Source: Spirochaetia bacterium
Lineage (GTDB): Bacteria; Spirochaetota; Spirochaetia; SZUA-6; Bin103
Assembly: GCA_965208575.1 (NCBI GenBank)
Contig: CBDBOV010000003.1
Coordinates: 224,001-288,000, forward strand
Length of the DNA stretch: 64,000 nt
Direction of reading: 5' to 3'
The position numbers were made by a program, and so were the translations under genes. Shown one piece after another: positions 30,109 through 63,502 of this stretch; position 1 is the stretch's first letter; every line of letters starts with the position of its first letter. The notes beneath the pieces are model-generated. The model saw nothing but the letters and a program-made list of their open reading frames with translations. It did not search any database and was not told the origin of the DNA.

Positions 30109-31383
30109 TCATTTTGCCGTGCGACCGCTGCCACCACGCTCCTCGCTCGGTGTTTGCACCGTGCTTGGTGCGGCCTTGGCGGTCTTGCTGACGTTCAGCT
30201 GCAGCAGATCCTCGGTCAACCTGGTCAGCTCGCGCTTGAGGGCGACCGGATTCAACGTCGCGTACTGCTGCTTGAGGCGGTTCTTCACCTTCTCGCTCAC
30301 CGACTCGGAGGCCAGCATGCGGTGATACGGCGTCTGCGGGTCGTCATAGATGCGGCGCACCTTGCTGCCGGTGCGGGTTTTCTTCACCAGCTTCACCGAG
30401 GGATAGAAGAAGTTCACCAGCAGGCACAGCGGGCGGTATATCGCGTTGAGGGCAGCCAGTTCCCGGTCGGTGTCGTAACGCAGGTGGCCGACCGCCCGTC
30501 GCACCACGTGGCCATTCTTCTGCTCGACGTAGCAGGTGTCGTTCTTGCGATGCGGGCGACCCCGAGTGAACGTGATGCCGTGCGCTTCGCAATAGCGCAG
30601 CAAATGATGATTGATGAACTCGCTGCCGTTGTCGGTGTCGATCCCCCGCATCACGATCGGCAGGCTCTGCCGGGCAGCGTCGATCGCCTCGTGGGTCCAG
30701 CGCTGCGCCTTGTTCTGCACGCCGTACAGGTCGACCCAGCCGGTGTCAACGTCGGTGATGGTGAGCGTGTGGCAGAAGTCGCCTGACGCGTTGCCGCCTT
30801 CATGGCCCACCAAGTCGATCTCGAAGAAGCCCGGCTCCTGCTCGTCCCAGTCAGCGAAGGTTCGGATCGCGATCTGATCCTTCAGGAGGGTGCCCGGCTT
30901 GGTGTGCGTGCGACCCTTCAGGCGCAGCCGTGCGCGCTCCTGCTGCAGCAGCCGGTCGATGGTCGCGGCGCTGATGGTCTGCAGCTTGCCGCGCACCGCT
31001 GCGGTCAGCTCGATCTCGCCGAACGACTCCAGCGTCGGCAGCATGGTGCGCAGCACGACCACCAGGCGCTTGCCGCACATGCAGTCGAACACGTACCAGA
31101 TCAGCTTCAGAGCGACCAGCACCTCCTGGTCGTAGCGCCGCGGTCGCACGCGGCGCTGGGCAGGCCGCGGACGCCCGACCACCAGCTTCACCAGTGTGCC
31201 GTCGACTCGCACCATGCGGGTCCGTCCCCACCAGGTCAACAGATGGATCGCGTACTTGCGCTGGTACCCGGTCGACTCGACGAACTCGTCGAGTATGCGC
31301 CCCTTCTCCTTCTTGCCCGCCCGACGATACCGCTGCGCGTGCTGCTCGGTGAGCTCTCGCCTTGAACTCATCTTCAACCCCAT
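30109..31383 (-). CDS. Integrase-core (rve) DDE transposase
   Basis: SAATIDR, GFFEIDLVGH, DTDNGSEF, YVEQKN; GGAGGAG RBS. Confidence 0.9.
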   Translation of the reverse strand: MGLKMSSRRELTEQHAQRYRRAGKKEKGRILDEFVESTGYQRKYAIHLLTWWGRTRMVRVDGTLVKLVVGRPRPAQRRVRPRRYDQEVLVALKLIWYVFDCMCGKRLVVVLRTMLPTLESFGEIELTAAVRGKLQTISAATIDRLLQQERARLRLKGRTHTKPGTLLKDQIAIRTFADWDEQEPGFFEIDLVGHEGGNASGDFCHTLTITDVDTGWVDLYGVQNKAQRWTHEAIDAARQSLPIVMRGIDTDNGSEFINHHLLRYCEAHGITFTRGRPHRKNDTCYVEQKNGHVVRRAVGHLRYDTDRELAALNAIYRPLCLLVNFFYPSVKLVKKTRTGSKVRRIYDDPQTPYHRMLASESVSEKVKNRLKQQYATLNPVALKRELTRLTEDLLQLNVSKTAKAAPSTVQTPSEERGGSGRTAK

Positions 31384-31514
31384 CTCCTCCGGAACCTCCT
31401 CACGTCCCTCGGAGAGGCTCCAACCGGACCCGGAAGGTCCAGCCCGTTCGGTTAGATTTTTAGATGAGGCATGCTTTCGCTACGGTTAGATTTTCGATGA
31501 GTCAATGCGCGCGC

Positions 31515-31544
31515 TTGACACGGATTTGGGCGGCCGCGTACACT
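31515..31544 (+). promoter_or_regulatory. Sigma70-like promoter, module A
   Basis: TTGACA-18nt-TACACT; nearly identical copy at 63636-63665 (-). Confidence 0.7.
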
Positions 31545-31881
31545 CGTCCGCGAATGGGCACTGACAGCGTGCAGCCCAGCCGCCGACTACCGCCAGCCGC
31601 GCAGCAGCCGACCTCGCGGCGCCGGTGCTGACGGCGGCACCATTGATGCGTGTGGCGCACAGCCGCCACCCGTCTGTGTATTCAACGGCCGACCGCGTCG
31701 CCCGCAAACTCCACCGGTCCACACCAGCCGGCCGGTCCACACCGGCCGGTGCCGGCACTTCCATACAGACAACCGACCCATCTGCGCCCGACACAGTTGT
31801 CGACGACAGATGCGCGCTAGCTGCGCCACCGGTTGGTCCGATGGCCGAGCCACCGTCCTGTCAAGCTCCCCAAACAGCTCA

Positions 31882-32075
31882 AGAAAGGGGGTGCAAATGA
31901 TACTCAAAGAGCCGTACGCGCGCGCGGCGTGAGCCCGGGTGAACCCGGTGAGTCACACGCCGCGCGCTTCTGACAACTTGACTCAGGGCAGCCTGCGTTG
32001 CAGGCGTGAGCGTAGCCAGGGAGCGGCAAGTCGCTCCGCAATACGCTCAAAAAACAACGATCTATGGAGAAAACC
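31882..32075 (+). ncRNA. Conserved structured leader motif, copy A (contains uORF 31897-31932 MILKEPYARAA)
   Basis: Alignable with copies B-D; three stems with compensatory changes. Confidence 0.7.
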
Positions 32076-33902
32076 ATGAATGGTATCGTAAGCGTGATGA
32101 GGACCTTCGCGGTTGCGTTGGTCCTCATCCTGACCGCGACCGGCCTGTGGGCCGCTGGCGAAGAAGAGGCACCGGCAGCGGCGGCCGAGAAGGAAATGGT
32201 GCTCGACCCGACCACCGGGGAGATGGTGGAGGCGCCACGATATGGCGGGACGATAACCGTTCTCAGTCATGATTGGGCTCCTGCCACTATGGACCCGTAT
32301 TTTTCGGCCCCTCAGGCCCTTCAGTATCTCACCCAGGTTCTAGAGAAGCTGGCCATTGGCGACTGGGGAATAGACAGGGACGTATATGACTGGTCGGGCC
32401 CCCCGGTCTTTCCTATGAGTGCCATGCGCGGGGCGCTGGCGGAAAGCTGGGAGATTTCCTCGGATAACCTCACTTATACCTTCAAGATCCGCCAGGGCGT
32501 TCAGTTCCACGACAAGGCACCGGTGAACGGCCGGGAGATGACTGCCAAGGACGTAGAATACAGCTTTCAACGCATGTTGGGAAGTAAGCTGACAGGGACC
32601 GAGTTCAGTGAAACCGAACCTTCCCCCCACATTGGTACTTGGAAGGCTAGACAGGTCGAATCGGTGACGGCGACGGACGAATGGACGGTTGTCATGAAGC
32701 TGAAACAGCCAGACCCCATGGCGCTGAGGGATAGCATCGACACGACCGTGTTTTACATGATTCCAAGGGAGGTAATCGATACATACGGTGACATGAAGGA
32801 TTGGCGGAACGCGGTCGGCACCGGACCCTTTGAGATGGCTGAGTATGTCGAGGGCAGCTCTATAACCTATACGAAGCATCCCAACTACTGGAGCTTCGAC
32901 GAAAAATTCCCGGACAACCGCCTGCCCTATGTTGACGAGATGAGGTTCGTGTTCATGACCGAGCCAGCAACGAAAATTGCCGCGCTGCGCACGGCTAAGG
33001 TCGATATCCAGGGCAGTCTCACGTACGCGCTCAAAAACAAGGACGACATGGAGAGGCTGCAACGGACCAACCCTGACATCGTGATAACCGAGCATCCTAA
33101 TCGGTCGGACTACGGTATCGGCATGAACACGCAGAAGGCGCCATTTGATGACATCCAGGTACGCAAGGCAATGCAGATGGCACTGGACCGTGAGACACTT
33201 CACAATACCTACTTCAAGGGGTGGGGAAGCTGGACACCTCACTCATTGCTGGCCAACGATATGCCAGTAGTTGGCACCGCATTCGAAGAGTGGCCCGAAG
33301 AGCTCAAGAAGATCTATGACTACGACCCGACAGAGGCCGAGAGGCTCCTTGATGAGGCGGGGTATCCGCGCGGCGCCGACGGCATCAGGTTCAAGCTCAC
33401 AATGGGACATTGGGAAGGCGGCGATCTGGACTATGCACAATTGGTAGCCGTTACCTACTTTCGTGACATTGGCGTTGAGGTAGAAGTTGAGCCAGTGCCA
33501 GGTGCGGAGTGGGCAAGTTACATTAACGCTGCACAGTGGGACATGTTTGGTGGTATGACAATGGCGGCGAAGTATGGTAATCCCCTGGGTTTTTTGAGTC
33601 AGCTCGGGACGGGTGCTTCTGCGAACCGCTGCAATTGCGCCGATCCGGCTTATGACGCCATTTTGGAAGCCGCCGGAAATGCAACCACGGAAGAGGAGTT
33701 TTTGCTGCAGGTAAGAGAGCTGATTGAGCACATAAAAGAGCAGGTTTGGTTCGTCTCGGGCCCGCAAATCCCATTACTAGGCGTGCACCAACCGTGGGTC
33801 AAAGGTCTCAACAAGGAATTTTGGCTGGGAAGTAACAAGACAAATGCCATCGTCCCCCGCCTCTGGGTCGACCAGGAGTTGAAGGCAGCGATGGGTTTTT
33901 AG
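32076..33902 (+). CDS. Family-5 (DppA/OppA-like) substrate-binding protein A
   Basis: PRYGG, LAESWE, GTGPF, NRLPYVD, PFDDIQVRKA, AGYPRGADG. Confidence 0.92.
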   Translation: MNGIVSVMRTFAVALVLILTATGLWAAGEEEAPAAAAEKEMVLDPTTGEMVEAPRYGGTITVLSHDWAPATMDPYFSAPQALQYLTQVLEKLAIGDWGIDRDVYDWSGPPVFPMSAMRGALAESWEISSDNLTYTFKIRQGVQFHDKAPVNGREMTAKDVEYSFQRMLGSKLTGTEFSETEPSPHIGTWKARQVESVTATDEWTVVMKLKQPDPMALRDSIDTTVFYMIPREVIDTYGDMKDWRNAVGTGPFEMAEYVEGSSITYTKHPNYWSFDEKFPDNRLPYVDEMRFVFMTEPATKIAALRTAKVDIQGSLTYALKNKDDMERLQRTNPDIVITEHPNRSDYGIGMNTQKAPFDDIQVRKAMQMALDRETLHNTYFKGWGSWTPHSLLANDMPVVGTAFEEWPEELKKIYDYDPTEAERLLDEAGYPRGADGIRFKLTMGHWEGGDLDYAQLVAVTYFRDIGVEVEVEPVPGAEWASYINAAQWDMFGGMTMAAKYGNPLGFLSQLGTGASANRCNCADPAYDAILEAAGNATTEEEFLLQVRELIEHIKEQVWFVSGPQIPLLGVHQPWVKGLNKEFWLGSNKTNAIVPRLWVDQELKAAMGF

Positions 33903-35024: not shown

Positions 35025-35042
35025 AAGGGGGAAATCGTGCAT

Positions 35043-35975
35043 ATGAGCGACGCCACAGGGGTACCATCACCAGTAATCGAGGCAAACAGACGGAGCCCGC
35101 TGGCTGATTTCTTTATCAGGCTGGTAACGGAGAAGCCGGTGGGTACTGCCTGCGGGATTATCATATTGATATTGATCCTTGTCGCTATCTTTGGCGGTGT
35201 TCTGACTCCTTATCCATATGATGAAGCAAACATTCATGACATGATGAAGGGCCCATCAGCCCAGTATCTGCTGGGTACCGACCAGTTGGGGCGAGACTTG
35301 TTGAGCCGCATTATCTACGGGGCTCGTATTTCGCTACTTGTCGGTCTGACCGTGACCACTATCAGTGTTGTCGTCAGTACCCTGATAGGCGGCACTTCAG
35401 GATTCATTGGCGGTAAATTGGACCTGGGTGTGCAGCGATTTGTCGATGCTTGGCTGGCTTTCCCGGGACTGCTCCTGCTGCTGACGATGATGTCCATAGT
35501 CGGGCGCGGTCTGCCGCAGATAATACTGGTCCTGGGGATATCAGGAGGTATTGGCGGCAGTTGAGTAATCAGAGGCGCCGTGATCGGCATCAAAGAGAAT
35601 GTGTATTTTCAGGCGGCCGACGCCGTTGGCTCGTCGAGATTGCGAACATTCATGCGCCACGTGGTGCCGAATGTCCTGCCTATCGTAATCATAATGTTCA
35701 GCGTCACCATAGGTGGCGTAATCCTGTCGTTGGCTGCTCTGGGCTTCCTCGGATTTGGTCTGCCTCCCGGCACTCCTGATTGGGGGGGTCTGCTCAGCCG
35801 GGAGGGACGCCAGTACATGGAGGCAGCGCCGCGGCTGGCGTTCTGGCCCGGTCTGTGCCTGACTATCACCGTCTTCAGTCTCAACATGTTCGGCGACGCC
35901 GTGCGAGACCTGCTCGACCCGCGGCTGCGGGGTGGCAGCGGTCGTCTCGCTGGCGGCGGCGCCACGTCGGTTTGA
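35043..35975 (+). pseudogene. DppC-like permease A with internal nonsense codon
   Basis: TGA at 35562-35564 where paralogues have Arg (GSRV); same frame continues to DAVRDLLDPRL. Confidence 0.88.
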
Positions 35976-36668: not shown

Positions 36669-36869
36669 AGAAAGGAGGTGCACGCTGGTACTCGAGCAAC
36701 CACGCAACGCGCGCGGCCTGAGCCCATGAGCCCATGAGTGACGTGCCGCGCGCTGGACGATCCGAGATTGCCGTCGCTGCGCAGCCGCCCGCGTTGCGGG
36801 CGCGAAAGTGCGCAGGGAGTGGCGATTCGCTACAAATATACTCTCAAAACCCAACATACGGAGTTACGT
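36669..36869 (+). ncRNA. Conserved structured leader motif, copy B (uORF degenerate)
   Basis: AAAGGAGGTGCA, GCGCGCGGC/GCCGCGCGC stem, GCCCGC-GTT-GCGGGC, TACTCTC. Confidence 0.65.
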
Positions 36870-38690
36870 ATGAACATTGTAATGACTACAAAGACCTTCG
36901 CGGTTGCGTTGGTCCTCGCCCTGGTCGCCACCGGCGTCTCGGCGAGCCCGGCCGGGGAAGAGGAGCCGGCCGCGGCGATGGAGAAGGAGATGGTGATGGA
37001 CCCGTCCACCGGCAAGATGGTGACCGCACCCGAGTACGGCGGCACCCTCACCATCGCATCCAAGAACGAGCTCCTGGACCAGGATCCGTCGATCGGCGGA
37101 CACTGGGCCGGCTTTCAGATCATGGGGGTGAACGAGAAGCTGGCATACGTCAACTGGGCCACGCCGCGGGACGAGTACCCCTTGACCTTTTGGTACACGC
37201 CGCCCCAGCACCTCACCGGGTGGCTGGCAGAGAGCTGGTCGAATCCCGACCTGCAGACGCTCATCGTCAAGGTCCGGCAGGGCGTTCACTGGCACGACAA
37301 GCCGCCGATGAACGGACGCGAGCTGACCGCCGAAGACGTCGCCTGGACCTACCGCCGCATCGGTGGCCTCCTCGACTGGAAGCCGGAGTATACCTACGCC
37401 CTGCGCAACTTTCCGTGGGAATCCATCGAGGCCACCGACCGGTACACGGTCGAGTTCAAGCTGACCGAGCCGCGTCTGGACTTGCAGAACCAGGTGCTCA
37501 CCGAGGTCGGCGTCTGGATCCTGCCACCGGAGGTCATCGAGCAGCACGGCAACTACTCCGATTGGCGGAACGTGGTCGGCACCGGGCCGTTCATGCTGGC
37601 TGACTTCCAACCCGAGGTACGCAAGCAGTGGGTGCGCAATCCCGACTACTGGGGCTTCGACGAGAAGTACCCGGACAACCGGCTGCCCTACGTCGATGAG
37701 CTGGTGGCTCTCCATATGAAGGAAGAGGCGACCTACACTGCCGCGCTGCGCACCGGCCAGGTAGACATGCTTACTGTCGGCGGCGGCATCGCGCTGGCCA
37801 CCGTCGAAGCGGTGGATGCCATCCTGAAGACCAACCCCGACATGCAGGCAGTCCCGTTCTACAGTCGCGCACTGCAGGTGTCCGGCCTGAACATCCGCCG
37901 GCCGCCGTTCGACGACATCCGCGTGCGCAAGGCGATGAACATGGCGATCGACCGCGATGCCATCAACGAGAGCTACTACGGCGGGTATGCCTACCCGACG
38001 GTGCAGGGCTGGGTCGGCGCCGCGCTCGGCGAGATGCACACTCCGTTCGCGGAGCGGTCCGCGGATCTGCAGGCTGAGTACTCCTACCATCCGCAGGAGG
38101 CCGAGCGCTTGCTTGACGAGGCCGGCTACCCGCGCGGCGCGGACGGGGTGCGGTTCAAGGTCACCTACGACCACCGCGACGTGATCGACCTCGGATGGGT
38201 CGAGATCGTGGCCGGCTACTGGAAGGCGATCGGCGTAGAGGTGGAGATCACGGTGATGGACACCGGCGCCTGGGTCGATCGCCGCGCCCGCGGGCTCTAC
38301 GAGATGACGACCGGCGACTCCGGCTGGGATCTGAGTCCCGCGCACATCATGAGCTACTACGGCTACGTCCACAACTACCAGGGCGAAGGGCAGGCGAACC
38401 AGGCGGGCGAATACACCGGCGGGCTCAAGGACGCGACCATGAGTCGGCTCTACGAGGCGTTCCAGGCTGCGACCAGCCAAGAAGCGCGGATCCCGATCAT
38501 GCGAGAGTTCGACGATTACATCATGCGCCAGCACTTCCAGGTCTACGGCCACAAGGCGCCGGCGTTCCAGCTGGCCAACCCCTGGGTCAAGGGCTGGAAC
38601 GGCGAGACGTTCCTCACGGATATGAGCAACAACGAGATTCTGGTGCGGGTCTGGATCGACCAGGACCTGAAGGCGAAAATGGGCTTCTGA
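36870..38690 (+). CDS. Family-5 substrate-binding protein B
   Basis: PEYGG, LAESW, GTGPF, NRLPYVD, AGYPRGADG. Confidence 0.92.
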   Translation: MNIVMTTKTFAVALVLALVATGVSASPAGEEEPAAAMEKEMVMDPSTGKMVTAPEYGGTLTIASKNELLDQDPSIGGHWAGFQIMGVNEKLAYVNWATPRDEYPLTFWYTPPQHLTGWLAESWSNPDLQTLIVKVRQGVHWHDKPPMNGRELTAEDVAWTYRRIGGLLDWKPEYTYALRNFPWESIEATDRYTVEFKLTEPRLDLQNQVLTEVGVWILPPEVIEQHGNYSDWRNVVGTGPFMLADFQPEVRKQWVRNPDYWGFDEKYPDNRLPYVDELVALHMKEEATYTAALRTGQVDMLTVGGGIALATVEAVDAILKTNPDMQAVPFYSRALQVSGLNIRRPPFDDIRVRKAMNMAIDRDAINESYYGGYAYPTVQGWVGAALGEMHTPFAERSADLQAEYSYHPQEAERLLDEAGYPRGADGVRFKVTYDHRDVIDLGWVEIVAGYWKAIGVEVEITVMDTGAWVDRRARGLYEMTTGDSGWDLSPAHIMSYYGYVHNYQGEGQANQAGEYTGGLKDATMSRLYEAFQAATSQEARIPIMREFDDYIMRQHFQVYGHKAPAFQLANPWVKGWNGETFLTDMSNNEILVRVWIDQDLKAKMGF

Positions 38691-41785: not shown

Positions 41786-41964
41786 CAGGAGGTGCAAAGT
41801 GGTACGCAAAGAACCGGACGCGCGCGCGGCGTAAGCCCCGTGAGTCACGCGCCGCGCGCCTGCGGAGTTGACTCTGTTCGAACGCCTGCGTTGCGGGCGC
41901 TGAGAGTACCGGAAGCGGCAATCGCTACCCGATACTCTCGAAATCTTTCTATCAGGAGTTGGTT
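41786..41964 (+). ncRNA. Conserved structured leader motif, copy C (uORF 41799-41834 MVRKEPDARAA)
   Basis: AGGAGG, GTG start, same stems as A and D. Confidence 0.7.
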
Positions 41965-43218
41965 ATGAACCATATAGCAAAGACCTGCGCGGTTGCGCTG
42001 GTCCTGGGCCTTGTGCTGACCGCAACCGGCCTGTGGGCCACCGGCGGCACGGAGGAGCCGGCAGCCGCCGCCGAGAAGGAAATGGTGCTCGATCCCACCA
42101 CCGGCGAAATGGTGGAGGCCCCACGATATGGCGGGACATTGACCTACGCCGAACGGGTCGAGCCGCCGGGTACCGACCCCTGGAACCAGGGCCACGGACC
42201 AAGGGGCGTCGATGGCGTTGCAGAGAAACTGGGCATCGCGAACTGGGGAATAGATAGGGATGAATTTGGCTTCGAAAGCAGGTACGTCCCGCTATTTGCC
42301 ATGAGACCGAATCTGGCGGAAAGCTGGGAAAAGCCCGACCCGCTGACTATTATCTTCAAAATCCGCCCGGGCGTTCGCTGGCACGATAAGGCACCGATGA
42401 ACGGTCGGGAGCTAACTGCCCAAGATGTCGAATACAACTTTCACCGCTATACGGGTCTGGGCAGCGGCTTCACCGAACCTAGCCCCTTCGACCCGATGAA
42501 GGCCGCGACATGGGAATCGATTACGGCCACCGACGATTCCACGGTTGTTTTTAAGTTAAAGGCGCCACGCAACGACGCGCTGGAGACTATCATCAGCGGC
42601 TGGTTTCTTTTGATAATGCCCCCCGAGGTAATCGAGCAACATGGTGACGTTCAGGACTGGAGGAACCTGGTAGGCACCGGGCCCTATATGCTGACGGACT
42701 GGGTCAAGGGCAGCTCGATGACCTATACCAAGAATCCGGACTACTGGGGCACCGACGAAAAATACCCAGAGAACCGGTTGCCCTATATTGACCAGTTAAG
42801 ACGGGTGATTATGCCCGAACAAGCAACATTTCTGGCGGCACTGCGCTCGGGTAAGCATGATATCATAGGTATACCCGGCGACACTCAGTTGGGGGATATC
42901 GGCCAGGTAGAGGCCCTCAAACGGACCAACCCCGAGATCAGGTTGTACCCGTGGTATCTAAGGTCGGGCACCTCTGTTACTTTCAACCTGCGCAGGGAGT
43001 CGCTCTTTAACGACATCCGGGTACGCCAGGCCATGCAGATGGCCATTGACCTGGAGACAATGTGGTACATATGGGGTCCTAAACCTCCCTCGTTCAATGC
43101 ATCCCAGCCATGGATCAAAGGCTATAACGGTGAAGTCGAACTGGGACTGTCTCGCTCAGTTGCCATGTTGGCCCGCATCTGGATTGATAGTGATCTGAAG
43201 CAAGAGATGGGAGGCTAG
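41965..43218 (+). pseudogene. Family-5 SBP C with large in-frame deletion
   Basis: AIDLET joined directly to MWYIWG near 43060; lacks about 190 aa including YPRGADG. Confidence 0.82.
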
Positions 43219-55200: not shown

Positions 55201-55390
55201 ACGTAACTCCGTATCTTGATTTTTGAGAGTATTGCGGAGCGGATTGCCCTCCCTGGCTACTCTCGGGCCCGCAACGCGGACGGCCAGTCCGAGTCAAGCT
55301 CCTGAGGCGCGCGGCGTGTGACTCACCGGGTTCGCCCGGGCTCACGCCGCGCGCGCGTGCGGTTCTTTGAGTATCATTTGCACCTCCTGG
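55201..55390 (-). ncRNA. Conserved structured leader motif, copy D (uORF 55342-55377 MILKEPHARAA)
   Basis: AGGAGG-led uORF; stems as in A. Confidence 0.7.
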
Positions 55391-56158
55391 TGCGCCGGCA
55401 AAAACCGGCAAGGTTGTTGTAGCGACCCGCGGCGGCGCCGAGTCATGCATCGTCGCTCGCAAGGGTGGGGAGCTGCCGCAGGCGGCGCGGCTATGGTGAA
55501 CCCTACACGGGCACGCAGGCGGAAACGCCGGACACAGCCAAGGGAGCACCTACGGTCACGCCGGCCGGTAGCGCCCGGGCCGCGGAGCGGGTGGAGGGAA
55601 GGGGCCTGGCCAAAGGGAATCCGCGCCAGCAAAACGCGTCCCGGACACCGTGCCGGATGGGCGTGCGCAGTGCGCCGGAGCGGATACGTCAAGCAGCGCG
55701 ATCCCTTATAGCGCCATGGCACAGGCGTGCCCCTTCCTTTTGTATGGGTGCCGGCAACGCCCTCTGGTGTGGACTGGTGGAGGTTGCGGCCGACGGGGTC
55801 GGCCGTTGGACTCACGGATGTGCGGCGGGTGTGCGCCACACCGATTGATGGTGCCGCAGCCAGCACCGGCGCCGCGCACTGGGCTGCTGCGCGGTTGGCC
55901 GGGCGGCTCCTAGTAGCGCTCGGCTGTCGCGCGGTTAGCTGAGCGGCTAACGGTAGTCGGGTAGACTGCTGCCGGGGGGGGGGGCGGGTAAACGCGCCGG
56001 CCGCTTTGGGGCTAACGAGTTGCTGCGCGGGTAGGGGTCGTCGGGCATCATGCGCATCGGTCGCGAATCCATGGCCGTCAATGATAGCCGACGTCGCAAG
56101 CGCCGGCCGTCAGGCACATGTGGTAGCATCCGCATCGGTCAGGCTCCCAAGGTTGGTC

Positions 56159-61332: not shown

Positions 61333-63132
61333 CTAATGCCCCATTTCTGCCTTTAGCTCACTGTCAATCCAGAGGCGCGAGAAGATGGGTAGAGTGTTTA
61401 AGAATGAAAGCCAGACTTCACCGTTATAACCGATGACCCACGGCTGGTGCGCCTGGTACGTTCCAGGCATGGGACCCCATATATACCAGTGGTTCTCCAC
61501 GGTGTACATATCCACTTCTTTGACCAGCCTCTGCCGTTCCTCTTCGGAAGTAGCGGTTCGGGCGGCGTCGAGAAGGGCATCCAACTCAGGGTACCTGGTT
61601 CCGTGTGTATTTCCAAAGCTGCTCGAGTGTACCCATTCGCGTGTAATATCCAACGGAGCGGTATGGTTGCCCAGAGGCATAGTAAACAGACCTTCCCAAG
61701 TACGATCCCTTTGAGCAGCGATACGACTCGCTTCATCCAATACGTCAATCTCTACATCAACGCCAATCTCCTCCCAGTAGGTGGCAGCCAGTTCACTATA
61801 GCCTAAATGAAACTTCTCTGAATGGTTCAACGTGGTCTTGAATCGAGTGCCGTCGGCGCCGCGCGGATATCCGGCTTCATCAAGCAGAGCTTCGGCTCCT
61901 GCCCGATCGTACCGATAGCCCTTCTTGACCTCTTCGGGCCACTCGTCGAAGGGGGTAGAATACCCGCTGATACCACTCCCTACTATACCCTGAGGCTGCC
62001 AGGCTGAAGTGCCCTTGTAGAAGCTGCGGTCGATGCCCTCGAGGTCCAGTGCCAACTGCATGGCCATGCGCACCCTGATGTCGTCAAAGGGCGGCTTGCT
62101 CGCGTCCATGTTAAAAGACGTTTCCGAACGGTTAAACCACGGCTCCAGCACGATTTCAGGGTTAGTCTTCCGGAGGCTATCAAGCACGTCGACCGACGTG
62201 ATATTAGTAGGGAAACCCACGAAATCAATCTTACCGGCGCGCAGTCCCGCCAAACGTGTTGCTTCCTCTTTGATGAAAAGGCCCTGCAACTTGTCAATGT
62301 AGGGCAGACGATTCCCCGGGTACTTCTCGTCGTCTTTCCAGTAGTCAGGATCCTTGGTATGGGTTATTGAGCTGCCCTCCACCCAGTCAGTCAGCATATA
62401 CGGCCCGGTACCGACCAGGTTTCTCCAATCCTTAACGTCGCCATATTGCTTGACGACCTCGGGGGGGTATATCAAGGCGTGGGACGACCCGCCAGCGAAT
62501 AGTACAAGGATAGCCGTATTTGGCTCGGTCAGCTTAACAACAACCGTATATTTGTCGGGCGCCGTTATCGATTCGGCAGATGGCCGCGCGTACGTAAAGG
62601 GGCTAGGTCCGGCTTCGGCGAAGTCATTCATACCCAACATGCGCTGAAAGCTATGGACGACATCATCAGCGGTAAATTCTCTCCCATTCATCGGTGCTTT
62701 GTTTTGCCACTTAATACCTTTGCGGATGTTGAAGATAATAGTCAGTGGGTCGGGAGTGTCCCAGCTCTCAGCCAGATGCGACGTATAGGCAAATTCAGGT
62801 TGGTAATGGGTTCTGAAGGAAAATACGTCCCTATCTATTGCCCAGTTCAGGAGTCCCAGCGTCTCTACAACGCCACCAGCGGCCAGTGCTGGGAGATGGA
62901 AGAAAAAGGAGTCAGCATTGTCTGGCTCGAGCATCGCGCCATAGGTCAATGTCCCGCCGTACTGGGGCGCGACCACCACCTTGCCGGTGGTGGGGTCGGT
63001 CACATACTTCTTGTCGGCGGCGGCTGCCGAGTCGCCACCGTCGCTCGAGCCAGCGGCCCACAGGCCGGTTGCGGTCAGGATGAGGCCACACAGCACTGCG
63101 AGCCCCGTCTTAAATAGAATTGTCTGTCTCAT
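61333..63132 (-). CDS. Family-5 substrate-binding protein E
   Basis: PQYGG, LAESW, GTGPY, NRLPYID, AGYPRGADG. Confidence 0.92.
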   Translation of the reverse strand: MRQTILFKTGLAVLCGLILTATGLWAAGSSDGGDSAAAADKKYVTDPTTGKVVVAPQYGGTLTYGAMLEPDNADSFFFHLPALAAGGVVETLGLLNWAIDRDVFSFRTHYQPEFAYTSHLAESWDTPDPLTIIFNIRKGIKWQNKAPMNGREFTADDVVHSFQRMLGMNDFAEAGPSPFTYARPSAESITAPDKYTVVVKLTEPNTAILVLFAGGSSHALIYPPEVVKQYGDVKDWRNLVGTGPYMLTDWVEGSSITHTKDPDYWKDDEKYPGNRLPYIDKLQGLFIKEEATRLAGLRAGKIDFVGFPTNITSVDVLDSLRKTNPEIVLEPWFNRSETSFNMDASKPPFDDIRVRMAMQLALDLEGIDRSFYKGTSAWQPQGIVGSGISGYSTPFDEWPEEVKKGYRYDRAGAEALLDEAGYPRGADGTRFKTTLNHSEKFHLGYSELAATYWEEIGVDVEIDVLDEASRIAAQRDRTWEGLFTMPLGNHTAPLDITREWVHSSSFGNTHGTRYPELDALLDAARTATSEEERQRLVKEVDMYTVENHWYIWGPMPGTYQAHQPWVIGYNGEVWLSFLNTLPIFSRLWIDSELKAEMGH

Positions 63133-63502
63133 AGAGATCGACCTCCGACAAATATTGTTTGAGAGCAGTCATTCCACTGCCGGCCCCTCGCCTGCTCCAT
63201 TCGAGCGAGGGCGACACCCCTTAGCGGTGCAGCCGCCCGGTCTTTCGTTAGTCTCTTGTCGCGTGCCTCCTTTGGCGCGCCGCGCCGAAAGGCAGCCATG
63301 CGCGCCGCCGCGCGTGGTGGCGGTGCTGCACGTCACCCATCTGCTTCTTGCTGCCGGCAAAGTCGCTACGCATGTTGATGTGGACTGGTGGAGTCGGCCG
63401 ACGTCGGCCGTTGGAGGCACGGATGCGTGGCGGGTGTGTGCCACGCGGATGGCTGGTGCCGCGCTCAGCACCGGCGCCGAGCGGCTGGCTGTCGCGCGGT
63501 CG

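What the first reader, a model, noticed from the sequence alone, without database searches (positions are those of the whole stretch)
31882..32075. Candidate novel cis-regulatory RNA family upstream of family-5 SBP genes, with covariation
Seen: a ~190-nt motif precedes SBP A, B (36669-36869), C (41786-41964) and D (55201-55390, minus), with a degenerate form at E (63133-63275). P1 is GCGCGCGGC(GTG)/(CAC)GCCGCGCGC. P2 is GCCTGC-GTT-GCAGGC in A but GCCCGC-GTT-GCGGGC in B (compensatory; G-U intermediate in C). P3 is GAGCGTA/TACGCTC in A (32008/32042) but GAGAGTA/TACTCTC in C and D (compensatory); it encloses a GCAA-containing hairpin and ends just before the RBS. GAGTCA beside the P1 3-prime arm can alternatively pair with downstream TGACTC in A, C and D, giving a switch or pseudoknot. 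I recognise no cobalamin, T-box, SAM, TPP or glycine consensus. Inference: an undescribed attenuator/riboswitch controlling an expanded transporter family.
Basis: partly seen in the sequence, partly recalled or inferred. Interest (0 to 1): 0.9.

Follow-up and report, generated by a model that had tools for sequence, protein, structure and literature searches.

The report
Leader-peptide RNA leader before transporter genes
A conserved, folded stretch of about 180 bases carrying a tiny translated reading frame sits in front of some sixty nutrient-uptake operons in this sponge-associated spirochaete genome, and it looks like an undescribed regulatory leader that is read by the ribosome rather than a classic riboswitch.

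Summary
The motif is real. Copies A-D match a covariance model built here at 110-184 bits. Copy E does not match (3.4 bits or less). Rfam 15 gives no hit.

The genome holds 62 copies. Of these, 61 lie directly 5' of a family-5 SBP gene on the same strand. About 270 copies occur in 8 of 11 genomes of one uncultured Spirochaetia genus. None was found in the other 26 genera of the order.

Each leader opens with a Shine-Dalgarno site and an 11-codon ORF encoding MILKEPHARAA. Codons 3-6 vary mostly at third, synonymous positions: 5/10/39 parsimony changes by codon position, p=6e-9. The last codons of this ORF form the 5' arm of hairpin P1.

Helices are conserved and linkers are free. Covariation is modest but exceeds the controls.

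No terminator was found. I also found no predicted unmasking of the SBP ribosome site and no conserved alternative hairpin.

Best reading: a new leader-peptide-dependent cis-regulator. What it senses and how it acts on expression are unknown.

The parts
31884..31892 (+). Shine-Dalgarno site of the leader ORF, copy A. It reads AAAGGGGGT here; the family consensus is AGGAGGTG.
   Evidence: Sequence. Purine-rich SD columns are conserved 5-8 nt before the start codon in alignments A2/A5.
31897..31932 (+). Leader ORF (uORF), copy A: 11 codons plus TGA, encoding MILKEPYARAA. The family consensus is MILKEPHARAA.
   Evidence: Of 96 distinct copies, 71 have a canonical start and exactly 11 codons. Parsimony changes in codons 3-6 by codon position are 5/10/39.
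31920..31931 (+). P1 5' arm. It lies inside the uORF, running from the last base of codon 8 to the first two bases of the stop codon.
   Evidence: 97.7% of cells paired. P1 forms in the minimum-free-energy fold of 49 of 50 copies.
31935..31948 (+). P1a, a small apical hairpin in the P1 loop (CCGGG-TGAA-CCCGG). It is absent in some copies.
   Evidence: 86% of cells paired; GC/CG swaps at 3 of 5 pairs; gaps in 13-24 copies.
31950..31955 (+). PK1 5' strand (GAGTCA). It is the last six bases of the P1 loop and abuts the P1 3' arm.
31956..31967 (+). P1 3' arm
31979..31984 (+). PK1 3' strand (TGACTC). With 31950-31955 it would form an H-type pseudoknot stacked on P1.
   Evidence: 92-96% of cells paired, with double changes at 2 of 6 pairs. 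The intervening linker varies in sequence and length.
31987..31989 (+). PK2 5' strand. The consensus is CTGGC; it is shortened to GGC in copy A.
   Evidence: 93% of cells paired across the family.
31991..32005 (+). P2 hairpin (6-7 bp, GTT loop)
   Evidence: 94.9% of cells paired; 5 of 7 pairs have double changes.
32008..32014 (+). P3 5' arm (GAGCGTA in copy A; GAGAGTA in most copies)
   Evidence: 94.2% of cells paired; 6 of 7 pairs have double changes.
32015..32019 (+). PK2 3' strand (GCCAG). It is contiguous with the P3 5' arm.
32020..32037 (+). P3a hairpin inside P3 (GGAGCGG / loop CAAG / TCGCTCC)
   Evidence: 88.9% of cells paired. At the second pair the 3' base is C (G-C, 46 copies) in some copies and A in others (about 28).
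32042..32048 (+). P3 3' arm (TACGCTC), followed by an A-rich, G-poor spacer at 32049-32065
32066..32078 (+). SD (GGAG) and ATG of SBP gene A
   Evidence: aligned start codon in the copies.
32076..33902 (+). SBP A, a family-5 solute-binding protein (608 aa)
   Evidence: Pfam PF00496, 1.5e-72. No NCBIfam model reaches its cut-off. Permease gene downstream.
36673..36849 (+). Leader copy B, a divergent subfamily. It has one extra base in the uORF, CTG at the start position and the stop shifted into the P1 loop. SBP B follows at 36870-38690.
   Evidence: (110.3 bits).
41787..41943 (+). Leader copy C (GTG start, TAA stop, no P1a). It precedes SBP C at 41965-43218, which carries an internal deletion.
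   Evidence: (125.1 bits).
55221..55389 (-). Leader copy D, with uORF at 55377-55342 encoding MILKEPHARAA. It precedes SBP D at 55200-53383.
   Evidence: (181.9 bits).
63133..63275 (-). Region E. It is not a member of this leader family; it belongs to a different small upstream family.
   Evidence: (3.4 bits or less).

Best explanation
This is a genus-specific, highly amplified 5' leader of about 180 nt. It heads operons that encode a family-5 solute-binding protein followed by ABC permeases, and it most likely acts in cis as a regulator that depends on translation of a leader peptide.

Shown:
- The leader begins with a strong SD and an 11-codon ORF. Its conserved core, I-L-K-E-P, is under selection at the protein level.
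- Codons 8-11 and the stop codon lie in the 5' arm of a 12-bp G+C hairpin (P1). A ribosome that finishes the ORF must therefore melt P1.
- Downstream lie the conserved helices P2, P3 and P3a.
- One short strand, TGACTC-AGA-CTGGC, is complementary both to the P1 loop (PK1) and to the internal loop of P3 (PK2).

Inferred:
- Whether a ribosome passes, pauses at or drops off the early K-E-P motif decides whether P1/PK1 stays folded. When Pro6 is in the P site, the ribosome's leading edge reaches the base of P1.
- The P1/PK1 state would be passed through the bridging strand to the P2-P3-PK2 domain and would set operon expression. Candidate outputs are mRNA stability, Rho access or the rate of downstream initiation.
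- Because about 60 diverged paralogues carry the same leader, the signal should be a global one, such as the translation or nutrient state of the cell, rather than each transporter's substrate.

The sensed signal and the output step are not known.
For: Linkage:
- The genome holds 62 copies.
- Of these, 57 are directly followed by an intact SBP gene, 4 by a broken one and 1 is an orphan fragment.
- Permease genes lie downstream of 59 of 62.
- R1 finds 64/85/43/35/34/6/2/1 matches in eight genomes of one genus.

Selection on the leader:
- The paralogous SBPs have a median amino-acid identity of 46.6%.
- Leader helices show 0.74-0.94 mean pairwise identity, while linkers show 0.36-0.51.
- Parsimony changes per site are 1.9-7 in helices and 13-21 in linkers.
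- The upstream flanks differ between copies.

uORF:
- Of 96 distinct copies, 87 start with ATG, GTG or TTG.
- 71 of 96 have exactly 11 codons, and 7 of 96 end right after the Pro codon as M-x-L-K-E-P-stop (in two of the seven K or E is replaced).
- The Pro codon uses all four third bases. Glu uses GAA/GAG, Lys AAA/AAG and Leu CTC/CTG.
- Changes by codon position in codons 3-6 are 5/10/39, binomial p=6e-9.
- The variable third base of codon 3 shows no compensating change in either candidate RNA partner, judged by inspecting.

Structure:
- 93.6% of cells are paired.
- 25 of 49 pairs carry a double change, against 8.9+-2.2 in shuffles (0 of 500 reach 25) and 8-16 in slid controls.
- The fold of copy A has z=-3.95.

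Transcription:
- Contigs from four metatranscriptome libraries (3 studies) cover the leader.
- One contig spans 31827-31935, from upstream of the SD into the P1 loop. Another spans 32012-32157, from the leader into the CDS.

Analogy:
- In E. coli MgtL, an early E-P-D-P motif destabilises the translating ribosome, and this sets the leader RNA conformation (passages of PMC11282234).
Against: No output mechanism was found.
- There are no terminator-like sites in 31400-32150.
- The predicted unpaired probability of the SBP SD-to-AUG region is the same in all three states modelled: 0.45 without a ribosome, 0.46 with a ribosome at the uORF stop and 0.45 with one at the uORF start.
- With a ribosome at the stop codon, the freed P1 3' arm has no conserved partner. 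It is mostly unpaired in 24 of 50 copies, pairs mainly with the P2 3' strand in 5, and takes other or mixed partners in the rest. P2, P3 and P3a form equally often in both states: 39/39, 35/35 and 41/40.
- These folds cannot model pseudoknots.

The uORF is not universal.
- 9 of 96 copies lack a canonical start, and 8 of 96 have frame-shifted, longer ORFs. The SBP genes of such copies in this genome look intact.

The motif resemblance is partial.
- K-E-P carries one acidic residue. The MgtL-type motif needs two.

The structural evidence is limited.
- Support for PK1 and PK2 rests mostly on conserved complementarity. Double changes occur at only 2 of 6 pairs in PK1 and 2 of 5 in PK2.
- The A5 alignment was fitted to the nested helices of the model.
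- An unbiased mutual-information scan found no additional long-range pairs.

The RNA evidence is weak. It comes from assembled contigs of relatives at 90-95% likeness, not raw reads, and DNA carry-over cannot be excluded.
Confidence: 0.5

Rival explanations
1. Riboswitch-like sensor. The conserved P2-P3-P3a-PK2 pseudoknot domain, with or without P1/PK1, binds a small molecule or second messenger that reports a global state. The uORF would be only an accessory or part of the expression platform.
For: - The domain is compact, conserved and pseudoknot-capable, with free linkers.
- It lies in the 5' UTR of transporter operons.
- No known family matches, so it would be a new class.
- The downstream helices fold independently of the uORF state in models. 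A self-contained aptamer would be expected to behave that way.
Against: - No expression platform was found: no terminator and no SD sequestration that changes with state.
- The peptide-level selection on the uORF is not explained by this reading.
- The same leader sits on about 60 paralogues with diverged binding proteins. This excludes substrate sensing and leaves only a global ligand.
- Covariation is too sparse to define an aptamer.
Confidence: 0.17
2. Constitutive expression module with no sensing. A strong SD with a short translated ORF near the 5' end, plus stable structures, protects the mRNA from 5'-end-dependent decay. It could also load ribosomes, giving the SBP gene high output. This resembles the ribosome-binding 5' stabilisers described for some Gram-positive mRNAs (recalled from memory; no call).
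For: - The SD is strong and the helices are very stable, with P1 formed in 49 of 50 folds.
- Predictions show no switch behaviour.
- The leader sits at the head of operons whose first gene product, the SBP, is usually needed in excess (the stoichiometry argument is general knowledge).
Against: - A stabiliser needs a ribosome-binding site but not a conserved peptide. The synonymous-only variation in L-K-E-P and the 7 copies that keep an M-x-L-K-E-P-type ORF ending right after Pro point to a role for the nascent chain.
- The conservation of two loop-strand complementarities and of P2/P3/P3a is more elaborate than protection would need.
Confidence: 0.15
3. Binding site for a trans-acting regulator, either an RNA-binding protein or an sRNA. 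The regulator would recognise the conserved loops, for example the GGA-containing CCAGGGAGC and the SD sites, and would control the whole set of operons as a regulon.
For: - Identical conserved single-stranded and loop motifs recur in about 60 leaders.
- A single global input fits a shared regulator.
- GGA motifs lie about 55-60 nt apart, at P3a and the SBP SD. That such motifs are typical CsrA-type sites is recalled from memory, not tested.
Against: No candidate regulator was identified or searched for. This reading does not explain the peptide-level constraint on the uORF. No covariation or motif test was run for it.
Confidence: 0.1
4. Non-regulatory repeat. A mobile or recombination-spread cassette, or a sequence homogenised by gene conversion, that merely travels with duplicated SBP genes.
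For: - It is restricted to one genus and has a very high copy number.
- Its distribution on the SBP tree is patchy. 58 of 127 subfamily genes carry it, with 28 parsimony changes.
- The 69 leaderless relatives truly lack it.
- Copies cluster in transporter-rich regions.
- An rve integrase ORF lies upstream of copy A.
Against: - 61 of 62 copies have the same orientation and spacing to an SBP start.
- The consensus shows no terminal inverted repeats (by inspection).
- Conservation follows helices and codon positions rather than being uniform.
- Leaders of paralogues differ by 15-25%, while the best cross-species matches reach 92-94%. That pattern fits descent under constraint, not within-genome homogenisation.
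- Labels on the tree are less scattered than random: 28 changes against a mean of 41.9 and a minimum of 33 in 200 shuffles.
Confidence: 0.05

Closest known systems
MgtL/mgtA (and corA-type) leaders of enterobacteria: a leader peptide with an early acidic/proline motif embedded in a structured transporter leader
   Same: Both have a short ORF in the 5' leader of a transporter gene. Both have an E-P motif within the first six residues. In both, whether the ribosome completes the ORF decides the leader RNA conformation. For MgtL I read passages of PMC11282234: an EPDP motif, ribosome drop-off, and toeprints with Pro3 in the P site. In this leader the uORF overlaps P1.
   Different: There is no sequence or structure homology and no Rfam family matched. 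This motif has one acidic residue rather than two. A Rho-dependent terminator, which is the MgtL output, could not be tested. This leader has pseudoknot-type complementarities and is present in 34-85 copies per genome rather than one.
Classical amino-acid operon attenuators (trp, his, leu, phe and thr leaders; recalled)
   Same: Both have an SD plus a short leader ORF whose 3' part overlaps the first strand of a hairpin, so that ribosome position controls RNA folding.
   Different: There is no run of regulatory codons; the consensus has a single His, a single Arg and three Ala. There is no terminator hairpin with a T tract. No conserved alternative (antiterminator) pairing exists for the freed strand. 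The downstream genes encode transporters, not biosynthetic enzymes.
Nascent-peptide arrest leaders (TnaC, SpeFL, ErmCL/ErmBL, cat and cmlA leaders; recalled)
   Same: These are very short conserved leader peptides (5-34 aa) whose sequence acts inside the ribosome. Some stall at or near a Pro-stop context. Seven copies of this leader end right after the Pro codon.
   Different: In the erm and cat systems the stalled ribosome opens a hairpin that hides the downstream RBS. Here the predicted accessibility of the SBP RBS does not change. No inducer is known, and stalling itself is untested.
Pseudoknot riboswitches in transporter leaders (for example preQ1-II, SAM-II and fluoride classes; recalled)
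   Same: Both have a compact conserved domain in which a loop pairs with a downstream strand. Both lie in the 5' UTR of uptake genes, and both have linkers free to vary.
   Different: No Rfam model matches. This leader holds a translated ORF. No ligand or expression platform was identified. One leader type serves about 60 diverged paralogues.
T-box leaders, as an example of a cis-regulator present in many copies per genome (recalled)
   Same: One leader family is repeated before many functionally related operons in a genome, and it reads a translation-related signal.
   Different: There is no T-box sequence or Stem I/specifier architecture, and no Rfam T-box hit. The copies here are near-identical rather than individually tuned by a specifier codon.

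Membership tests
Any Rfam 15 family (riboswitches, leaders, sRNAs) | Covariance-model match at or above the family's gathering score | tested here: not met
   There are 0 matches in the whole window at gathering thresholds. In the E-value scan of 31700-32150 the best E-value is 0.35 (a microRNA model), and every hit is far below its gathering score.
Leader-peptide (ribosome-mediated) cis-regulators | SD plus short ORF in the 5' leader with evidence of translation-level constraint | tested here: met
   87 of 96 copies have a canonical start and 71 of 96 have 11 codons. Changes by codon position in codons 3-6 are 5/10/39, p=6e-9.
Leader-peptide (ribosome-mediated) cis-regulators | The leader ORF overlaps an RNA helix, so that ribosome position changes folding | tested here: met
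   The P1 5' arm at 31920-31931 lies within the uORF at 31897-31932. P1 is paired in 97.7% of cells.
Leader-peptide (ribosome-mediated) cis-regulators | A defined output: a terminator, RBS-masking helix or Rho site whose state depends on uORF translation | tested here: inconclusive
   No terminator was found. RBS accessibility did not change. No conserved alternative partner exists. Pseudoknots and Rho sites cannot be modelled with these tools.
Classical transcription attenuator (trp/his type) | Tandem regulatory codons in the leader peptide and an intrinsic terminator | tested here: not met
   The peptide MILKEPHARAA has no codon run. There are 0 terminator-like sites.
MgtL-type intrinsic-ribosome-destabilisation leader | Two acidic residues, adjacent or one apart, with proline, within the first residues of the nascent chain | tested here: not met
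   The consensus has a single acidic residue (E5) followed by P6. The requirement for two is taken from passages of PMC11282234. The resemblance is functional and partial.
Riboswitch | Conserved aptamer fold supported by covariation | tested here: inconclusive
   25 of 49 pairs carry double changes, against 8.9 in shuffles and 8-16 in slid controls. Most pairs hardly vary, the alignment was fitted to the model, and the mutual-information scan adds nothing.
Riboswitch | Specific ligand binding and a ligand-dependent expression platform | not testable with these tools
   This needs in-line probing or binding assays. No platform was seen in silico.
MITE / REP-type dispersed repeat | Copies scattered without regard to neighbouring genes; terminal inverted repeats | tested here: not met
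   61 of 62 copies lie directly 5' of an SBP gene on the same strand. The consensus ends, AGGAGGTG and CTCTCAAAA, are not inverted repeats (by inspection).

The most novel reading that the evidence does not exclude
This would be a new class of regulon-wide cis switch read by the ribosome. A nascent K-E-P leader peptide and a tandem pseudoknot leader together would report the cell's translational or nutrient state. They would co-regulate 35-85 nutrient-uptake operons in sponge-associated spirochaetes. That would make it the most highly amplified cis-regulatory RNA family known in a single bacterial genome, and it arose within one genus alongside a burst of transporter duplication.
Probability: 0.3. 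Interest if true: 0.8.

Novelty: new variant of a known kind. Interest (0 to 1): 0.62.

Why it matters
If the leader is a working regulator, one RNA-plus-peptide device controls roughly a third of an extraordinary transporter repertoire. That repertoire has at least 133 family-5 SBP genes in 6.5 Mb, in an uncultured symbiont lineage. The leader would show how a young cis-regulator can spread through a gene family as the family expands. It would also add a leader-peptide motif (I-L-K-E-P) and a hairpin/pseudoknot architecture to the few known cases where the ribosome itself is the sensor.

The element is small (about 180 nt) and self-contained. The hypothesis can therefore be tested directly in cell-free translation or in a heterologous host, without cultivating the organism.

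The finding is also a caution for motif hunters. A conserved, structured 5' UTR with apparent covariation can hide a translated mini-ORF.

Tried and rejected
Frameshift or read-through fusion of the uORF to the SBP gene is rejected. The frame of the SBP start relative to the uORF start is 18/17/15 across the three frames in 50 copies.

Simple RBS unmasking by uORF translation is not supported. The unpaired probability of the SD-to-AUG region is 0.45, 0.46 and 0.45 in the three states modelled.

An attenuator with alternative hairpins is not supported. The freed P1 3' arm has no conserved partner, and no terminator was found.

I considered pairing of the uORF segment ATACTC with GAGTA (P3) or TGAGT (the P1 loop). 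I wrote structures for both but did not count them. By inspection, the copies with CTG in place of CTC keep both candidate partners unchanged. I therefore dropped the idea.

I noted an alternative pairing, GTAGC with GCTAC. It competes with P3, PK2 and P3a in the copies that carry A at the P3a position. I did not test it further.

RNAalifold on the MAFFT alignment recovered only P1 and P2. The other helices were defined by hand and then counted.

The comparison of orthologous loci across genomes was uninformative. The closest genome is nearly identical over flank, leader and CDS. In addition, the first 90 nt of the CDS are themselves conserved, and that conservation is at the protein level.

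The mutual-information scan was dominated by register shifts at the SD and by subfamily signal.

In the upstream 40 nt, a hairpin just before the SD is significant in only 15 of 50 copies. I do not count it as part of the element.

Metatranscriptome contigs cannot give 5' ends, strand or expression level. Parts without cover mean nothing.

Literature searches returned no paper describing this leader. One search found 0 papers. For some searches I saw only the listings and the starts of abstracts. For PMC11282234 I read passages. These searches are narrow and do not prove that the element is unpublished. No supplementary files were consulted.

I did not use the metagenome scan, structure prediction, complex prediction or the protein-atlas tools.
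Full report
WHAT IS THERE. The window is G000:C3:224001-288000 of a 6.5-Mb, 67% G+C genome in six contigs. At the reported place, a block of about 180 nt runs from a Shine-Dalgarno site at 31884 to just before the start codon of a family-5 solute-binding protein (SBP) gene at 32076. Similar blocks precede SBP genes B, C and D. I built a profile HMM from A-D. It found 62 copies in the genome with E-values from 1e-54 to 8e-10. A covariance model, R1, was built from 50 full-length copies (171 positions, 38 pairs). R1 re-finds A-D at 110-184 bits. E instead resembles five other places in the genome, so it belongs to a different small upstream family. Rfam 15 has no match at gathering thresholds anywhere in the window. 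A permissive scan of 31700-32150 returned only noise.

LINKAGE AND SPREAD. Of the 62 copies, 57 are followed immediately, on the same strand, by an intact SBP reading frame. Four are followed by an SBP gene with a frameshift or deletion; copy C of the window is one of these. One is a truncated leader with no SBP. Permease genes lie 1.7-4.5 kb downstream of 59 of 62, so the leader heads SBP-permease operons. The SBPs match Pfam PF00496 but no NCBIfam equivalog above its cut-off. Their nearest solved relatives are peptide, dipeptide, nickel, haem and opine binders.

The genome carries an extreme SBP expansion. The Pfam search scored 133 matches out of 219 candidates, and a subfamily HMM matched 189 ORFs of 400 aa or more.

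With R1, matches number 64 in G000, 85 in G005, 43 in G001, 35 in G006, 34 in G003, 6 in G007, 2 in G008 and 1 in G004. There are none in three other genomes of the genus (81-95% complete) and none in 13 genomes of the sister genus. Only 116 candidates per genome were scored, and a few weak reverse-strand P1 hits may be included, so these counts are approximate. Across the order, 8 of 92 genomes and 1 of 27 genera have it. An exact-pattern scan of 185,579 species' genomes returned 22 stretches. All came from two records titled 'MAG: Spirochaetia bacterium' and one titled 'MAG: bacterium'. Leader counts track SBP candidate counts: 169-226 in the five genomes with 34-85 leaders, 90 or fewer in the other genomes of the genus, and 5-57 in the sister genus. 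These genomes are kin, so this is description and not a test. DNA holders of the stretch include runs labelled sponge metagenome.

THE LEADER IS UNDER SELECTION, AND THE SELECTION HAS A PATTERN. The 57 downstream proteins are only 46.6% identical at the median. Upstream flanks differ between copies. The leader itself keeps a mean pairwise identity of 0.79. The identity is uneven: 0.74-0.94 in helix strands and 0.36-0.51 in linkers. On a tree of 96 distinct copies from eight genomes, helices took 1.9-7 parsimony changes per site and linkers took 13-21. For comparison, third codon positions in variable parts of the SBP genes have an identity of 0.33-0.42. Recent duplication alone would not give this pattern.

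A TRANSLATED LEADER PEPTIDE. In 96 distinct copies the start is ATG in 72, GTG in 11, TTG in 4 and CTG in 3. Seventy-one encode exactly 11 codons. The commonest peptide is MILKEPHARAA (36 copies), followed by MILKEPYARAA (7). Seven copies stop right after the Pro codon. Eight are longer through small indels, and nine lack a canonical start. The stop codon is TGA in 86 of 96.

In codons 3-6 (L-K-E-P), variation is concentrated at third positions and is synonymous. Pro uses CCG, CCC, CCT and CCA. Glu uses GAA and GAG, Lys uses AAA and AAG, and Leu uses CTC and CTG. By codon position, the counts of variant copies are 5/11/58. The counts of parsimony events are 5/10/39, with binomial p=6e-9 against equal rates. 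This is the signature of purifying selection on a translated peptide.

Codons 8-11 (A-R-A-A) and the first two bases of the stop codon form the 5' arm of P1. A ribosome that completes the ORF must therefore open that 12-bp G+C helix. With Pro6 in the P site, the ribosome's leading edge would reach the base of P1. I infer this from the geometry of the sequence and from the usual size of a ribosome footprint, which is general knowledge.

RNA STRUCTURE. P1 (12 bp), the optional apical P1a, P2, P3 and the enclosed P3a are all present. Two further complementarities exist. CTGGC, three bases further on, can pair with GCCAG, which directly follows the P3 5' arm; this is PK2. Both would be H-type pseudoknots with no spacer between the stacked helices. 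One short strand, TGACTC-AGA-CTGGC, would bridge the P1 module and the P3 module.

On the 96-copy alignment, 93.6% of cells form standard pairs. Twenty-five of 49 pairs carry at least one double change, against 8.9+-2.2 in shuffles (0 of 500 reach 25) and 8-16 when partners are slid by 1-3 columns. On the MAFFT alignment of 50 copies the figures were 21 of 55 against 11.1+-2.3.

There are caveats. The family is so conserved that most pairs barely vary. The 96-copy alignment was fitted to the nested helices. PK1 and PK2 were not in the model, yet they rest largely on conserved complementarity. A mutual-information scan gave no new long-range pairs. Copy A folds better than shuffles, with z=-3.95.

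HOW IT MIGHT WORK, AND WHAT FAILED. I found no intrinsic terminator. The uORF and SBP frames are unrelated, at 18/17/15, so frameshift fusion is excluded. Forcing the ribosome footprint single-stranded at the uORF stop or at the uORF start leaves the predicted accessibility of the SBP SD-to-AUG region unchanged, at 0.45, 0.46 and 0.45. The freed P1 3' arm has no conserved alternative partner, and P2, P3 and P3a form equally often with and without the ribosome. The usual outputs of leader-peptide attenuators are therefore not visible. These models cannot treat pseudoknots, Rho or RNases.

What remains is an inference. The peptide core ends in K-E-P, early in the nascent chain. In E. coli MgtL, an early E-P-D-P motif destabilises the ribosome, and whether translation is completed sets the leader RNA conformation and the expression of the downstream transporter. 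A motif NKDEPD derived from such genes confers the same dependence (passages of PMC11282234). I propose that passage, pausing or drop-off at K-E-P decides whether P1/PK1 is melted. This state would be relayed through the bridging strand to the P2-P3-PK2 domain. About 60 diverged paralogues share the leader, so the input should be a global state rather than each transporter's substrate.

The resemblance to MgtL is partial. This leader has one acidic residue where MgtL has two, and there is no homology between them.

TRANSCRIPTION. Promoter-like TTGAC-N17 elements lie 60-70 nt upstream of the uORF start in several copies. I saw these by eye and did not score them. For copy A, the only scanner hit is 350 nt upstream. 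Contigs from four metatranscriptome libraries of three studies cover the leader. One spans 31827-31935, from upstream of the SD into P1. Another spans 32012-32157, from the leader into the CDS. Contigs of paralogous copies continue upstream of the SD. These are assembled contigs of relatives at 90-95% likeness, and DNA carry-over is possible. They count only as weak support that the uORF lies on the mRNA.

ORIGIN. Within the SBP subfamily (127 ORFs), 58 carry the leader. On a tree, the trait needs 28 changes, against a mean of 41.9 and a minimum of 33 for shuffled labels. The 69 leaderless members truly lack it, and many share other upstream similarities. The leader therefore follows descent in part, but it has also been lost, replaced or transferred between paralogues repeatedly. 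Copy A is 92-94% identical to its best matches in two other species and 85% or less identical to paralogues in its own genome. That argues against wholesale homogenisation within a genome.

VERDICT. Copy E is not part of it. The element is an undescribed, conserved, structured 5' leader specific to family-5 SBP operons of one uncultured Spirochaetia genus. Its defining feature is a translated 11-codon leader ORF that overlaps the main hairpin. I rate a ribosome/leader-peptide-dependent cis-regulator at 0.5, a riboswitch-like sensor at 0.17, a constitutive stabiliser or enhancer at 0.15, a site for a trans-acting factor at 0.1 and a functionless repeat at 0.05. I class it as a new variant of a known kind.

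Noticed in passing
whole genome G000 (e.g. C6:770000-981000, C4:380000-564000): There is an extreme expansion of family-5 SBP genes. The Pfam search scored 133 matches of 219 candidates, and a subfamily HMM matched 189 ORFs of 400 aa or more. Many lie in dense clusters of ABC operons. Sister-genus genomes have 5-57 candidates.
   Followed up: partly
window 63125-63340 (minus), upstream of SBP E (61333-63132): The upstream region of SBP E has its own relatives at five other places in the genome, at 75-91% identity over 33-178 nt. It also begins with an AAAGGAGG site but has no obvious start codon after it. It may be a second leader family.
   Followed up: partly
upstream regions of 69 leaderless subfamily SBP genes, G000: Forty of these 69 upstream regions form one similarity cluster and six form another. 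This suggests that further conserved leader types exist in the same gene family.
   Followed up: no
window 32033-32037 and the aligned column in all copies (A5 column 312): There is a two-state polymorphism in the P3a 3' strand. With GCTCC, P3a is a perfect 7 bp (the second pair is G-C in 46 of 96 distinct copies). With GCTAC (about 28 copies), P3a has a G-A mismatch, while a perfect alternative pairing with GTAGC becomes possible. GTAGC overlaps P3 and PK2. This may bias the fold between two states.
   Followed up: partly
40 nt upstream of the uORF SD, e.g. window 55391-55420 (minus) for copy D: A small hairpin with different stem sequences in different copies (GCCGG/CCGGC, GGGCAC/GTGCCC, CCGG/CCGG) sits just before the SD. 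It stands out against shuffles in only 15 of 50 copies. It may be a 5'-terminal stem-loop.
   Followed up: partly
window 32076-32260 and the aligned 5' ends of the paralogous SBP genes: The signal peptide and a following acidic/alanine-rich linker (..ATGLWAAGAEEEPAAAADKE..) are much better conserved among paralogues (amino-acid identity 0.5-0.75) than the region just downstream of the linker (0.17-0.21 over alignment codons 61-80). Third codon positions are the least conserved in most of these N-terminal blocks, so the constraint is at the protein level. No lipobox cysteine is visible in the sequences shown.
   Followed up: partly
window 30109-31383 (minus): An ORF with an rve integrase core domain (4.6e-09) lies about 500 nt upstream of leader copy A.
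   Followed up: no
window 41965-43218 and 35037-35564: SBP C is shortened by an internal deletion; the subfamily-HMM match jumps from model position 368 to 546. The second permease ORF after SBP A is only 175 aa and keeps just the OppC_N part. Some operons of the family are therefore decaying.
   Followed up: partly
about 110 nt upstream of the leader in a subgroup of copies (h09, h11, h13, h14, h23, h26, h30, h38, h49; none in the window): A further conserved upstream block is shared by about nine copies. It may be a common promoter region or the end of a conserved upstream gene.
   Followed up: no
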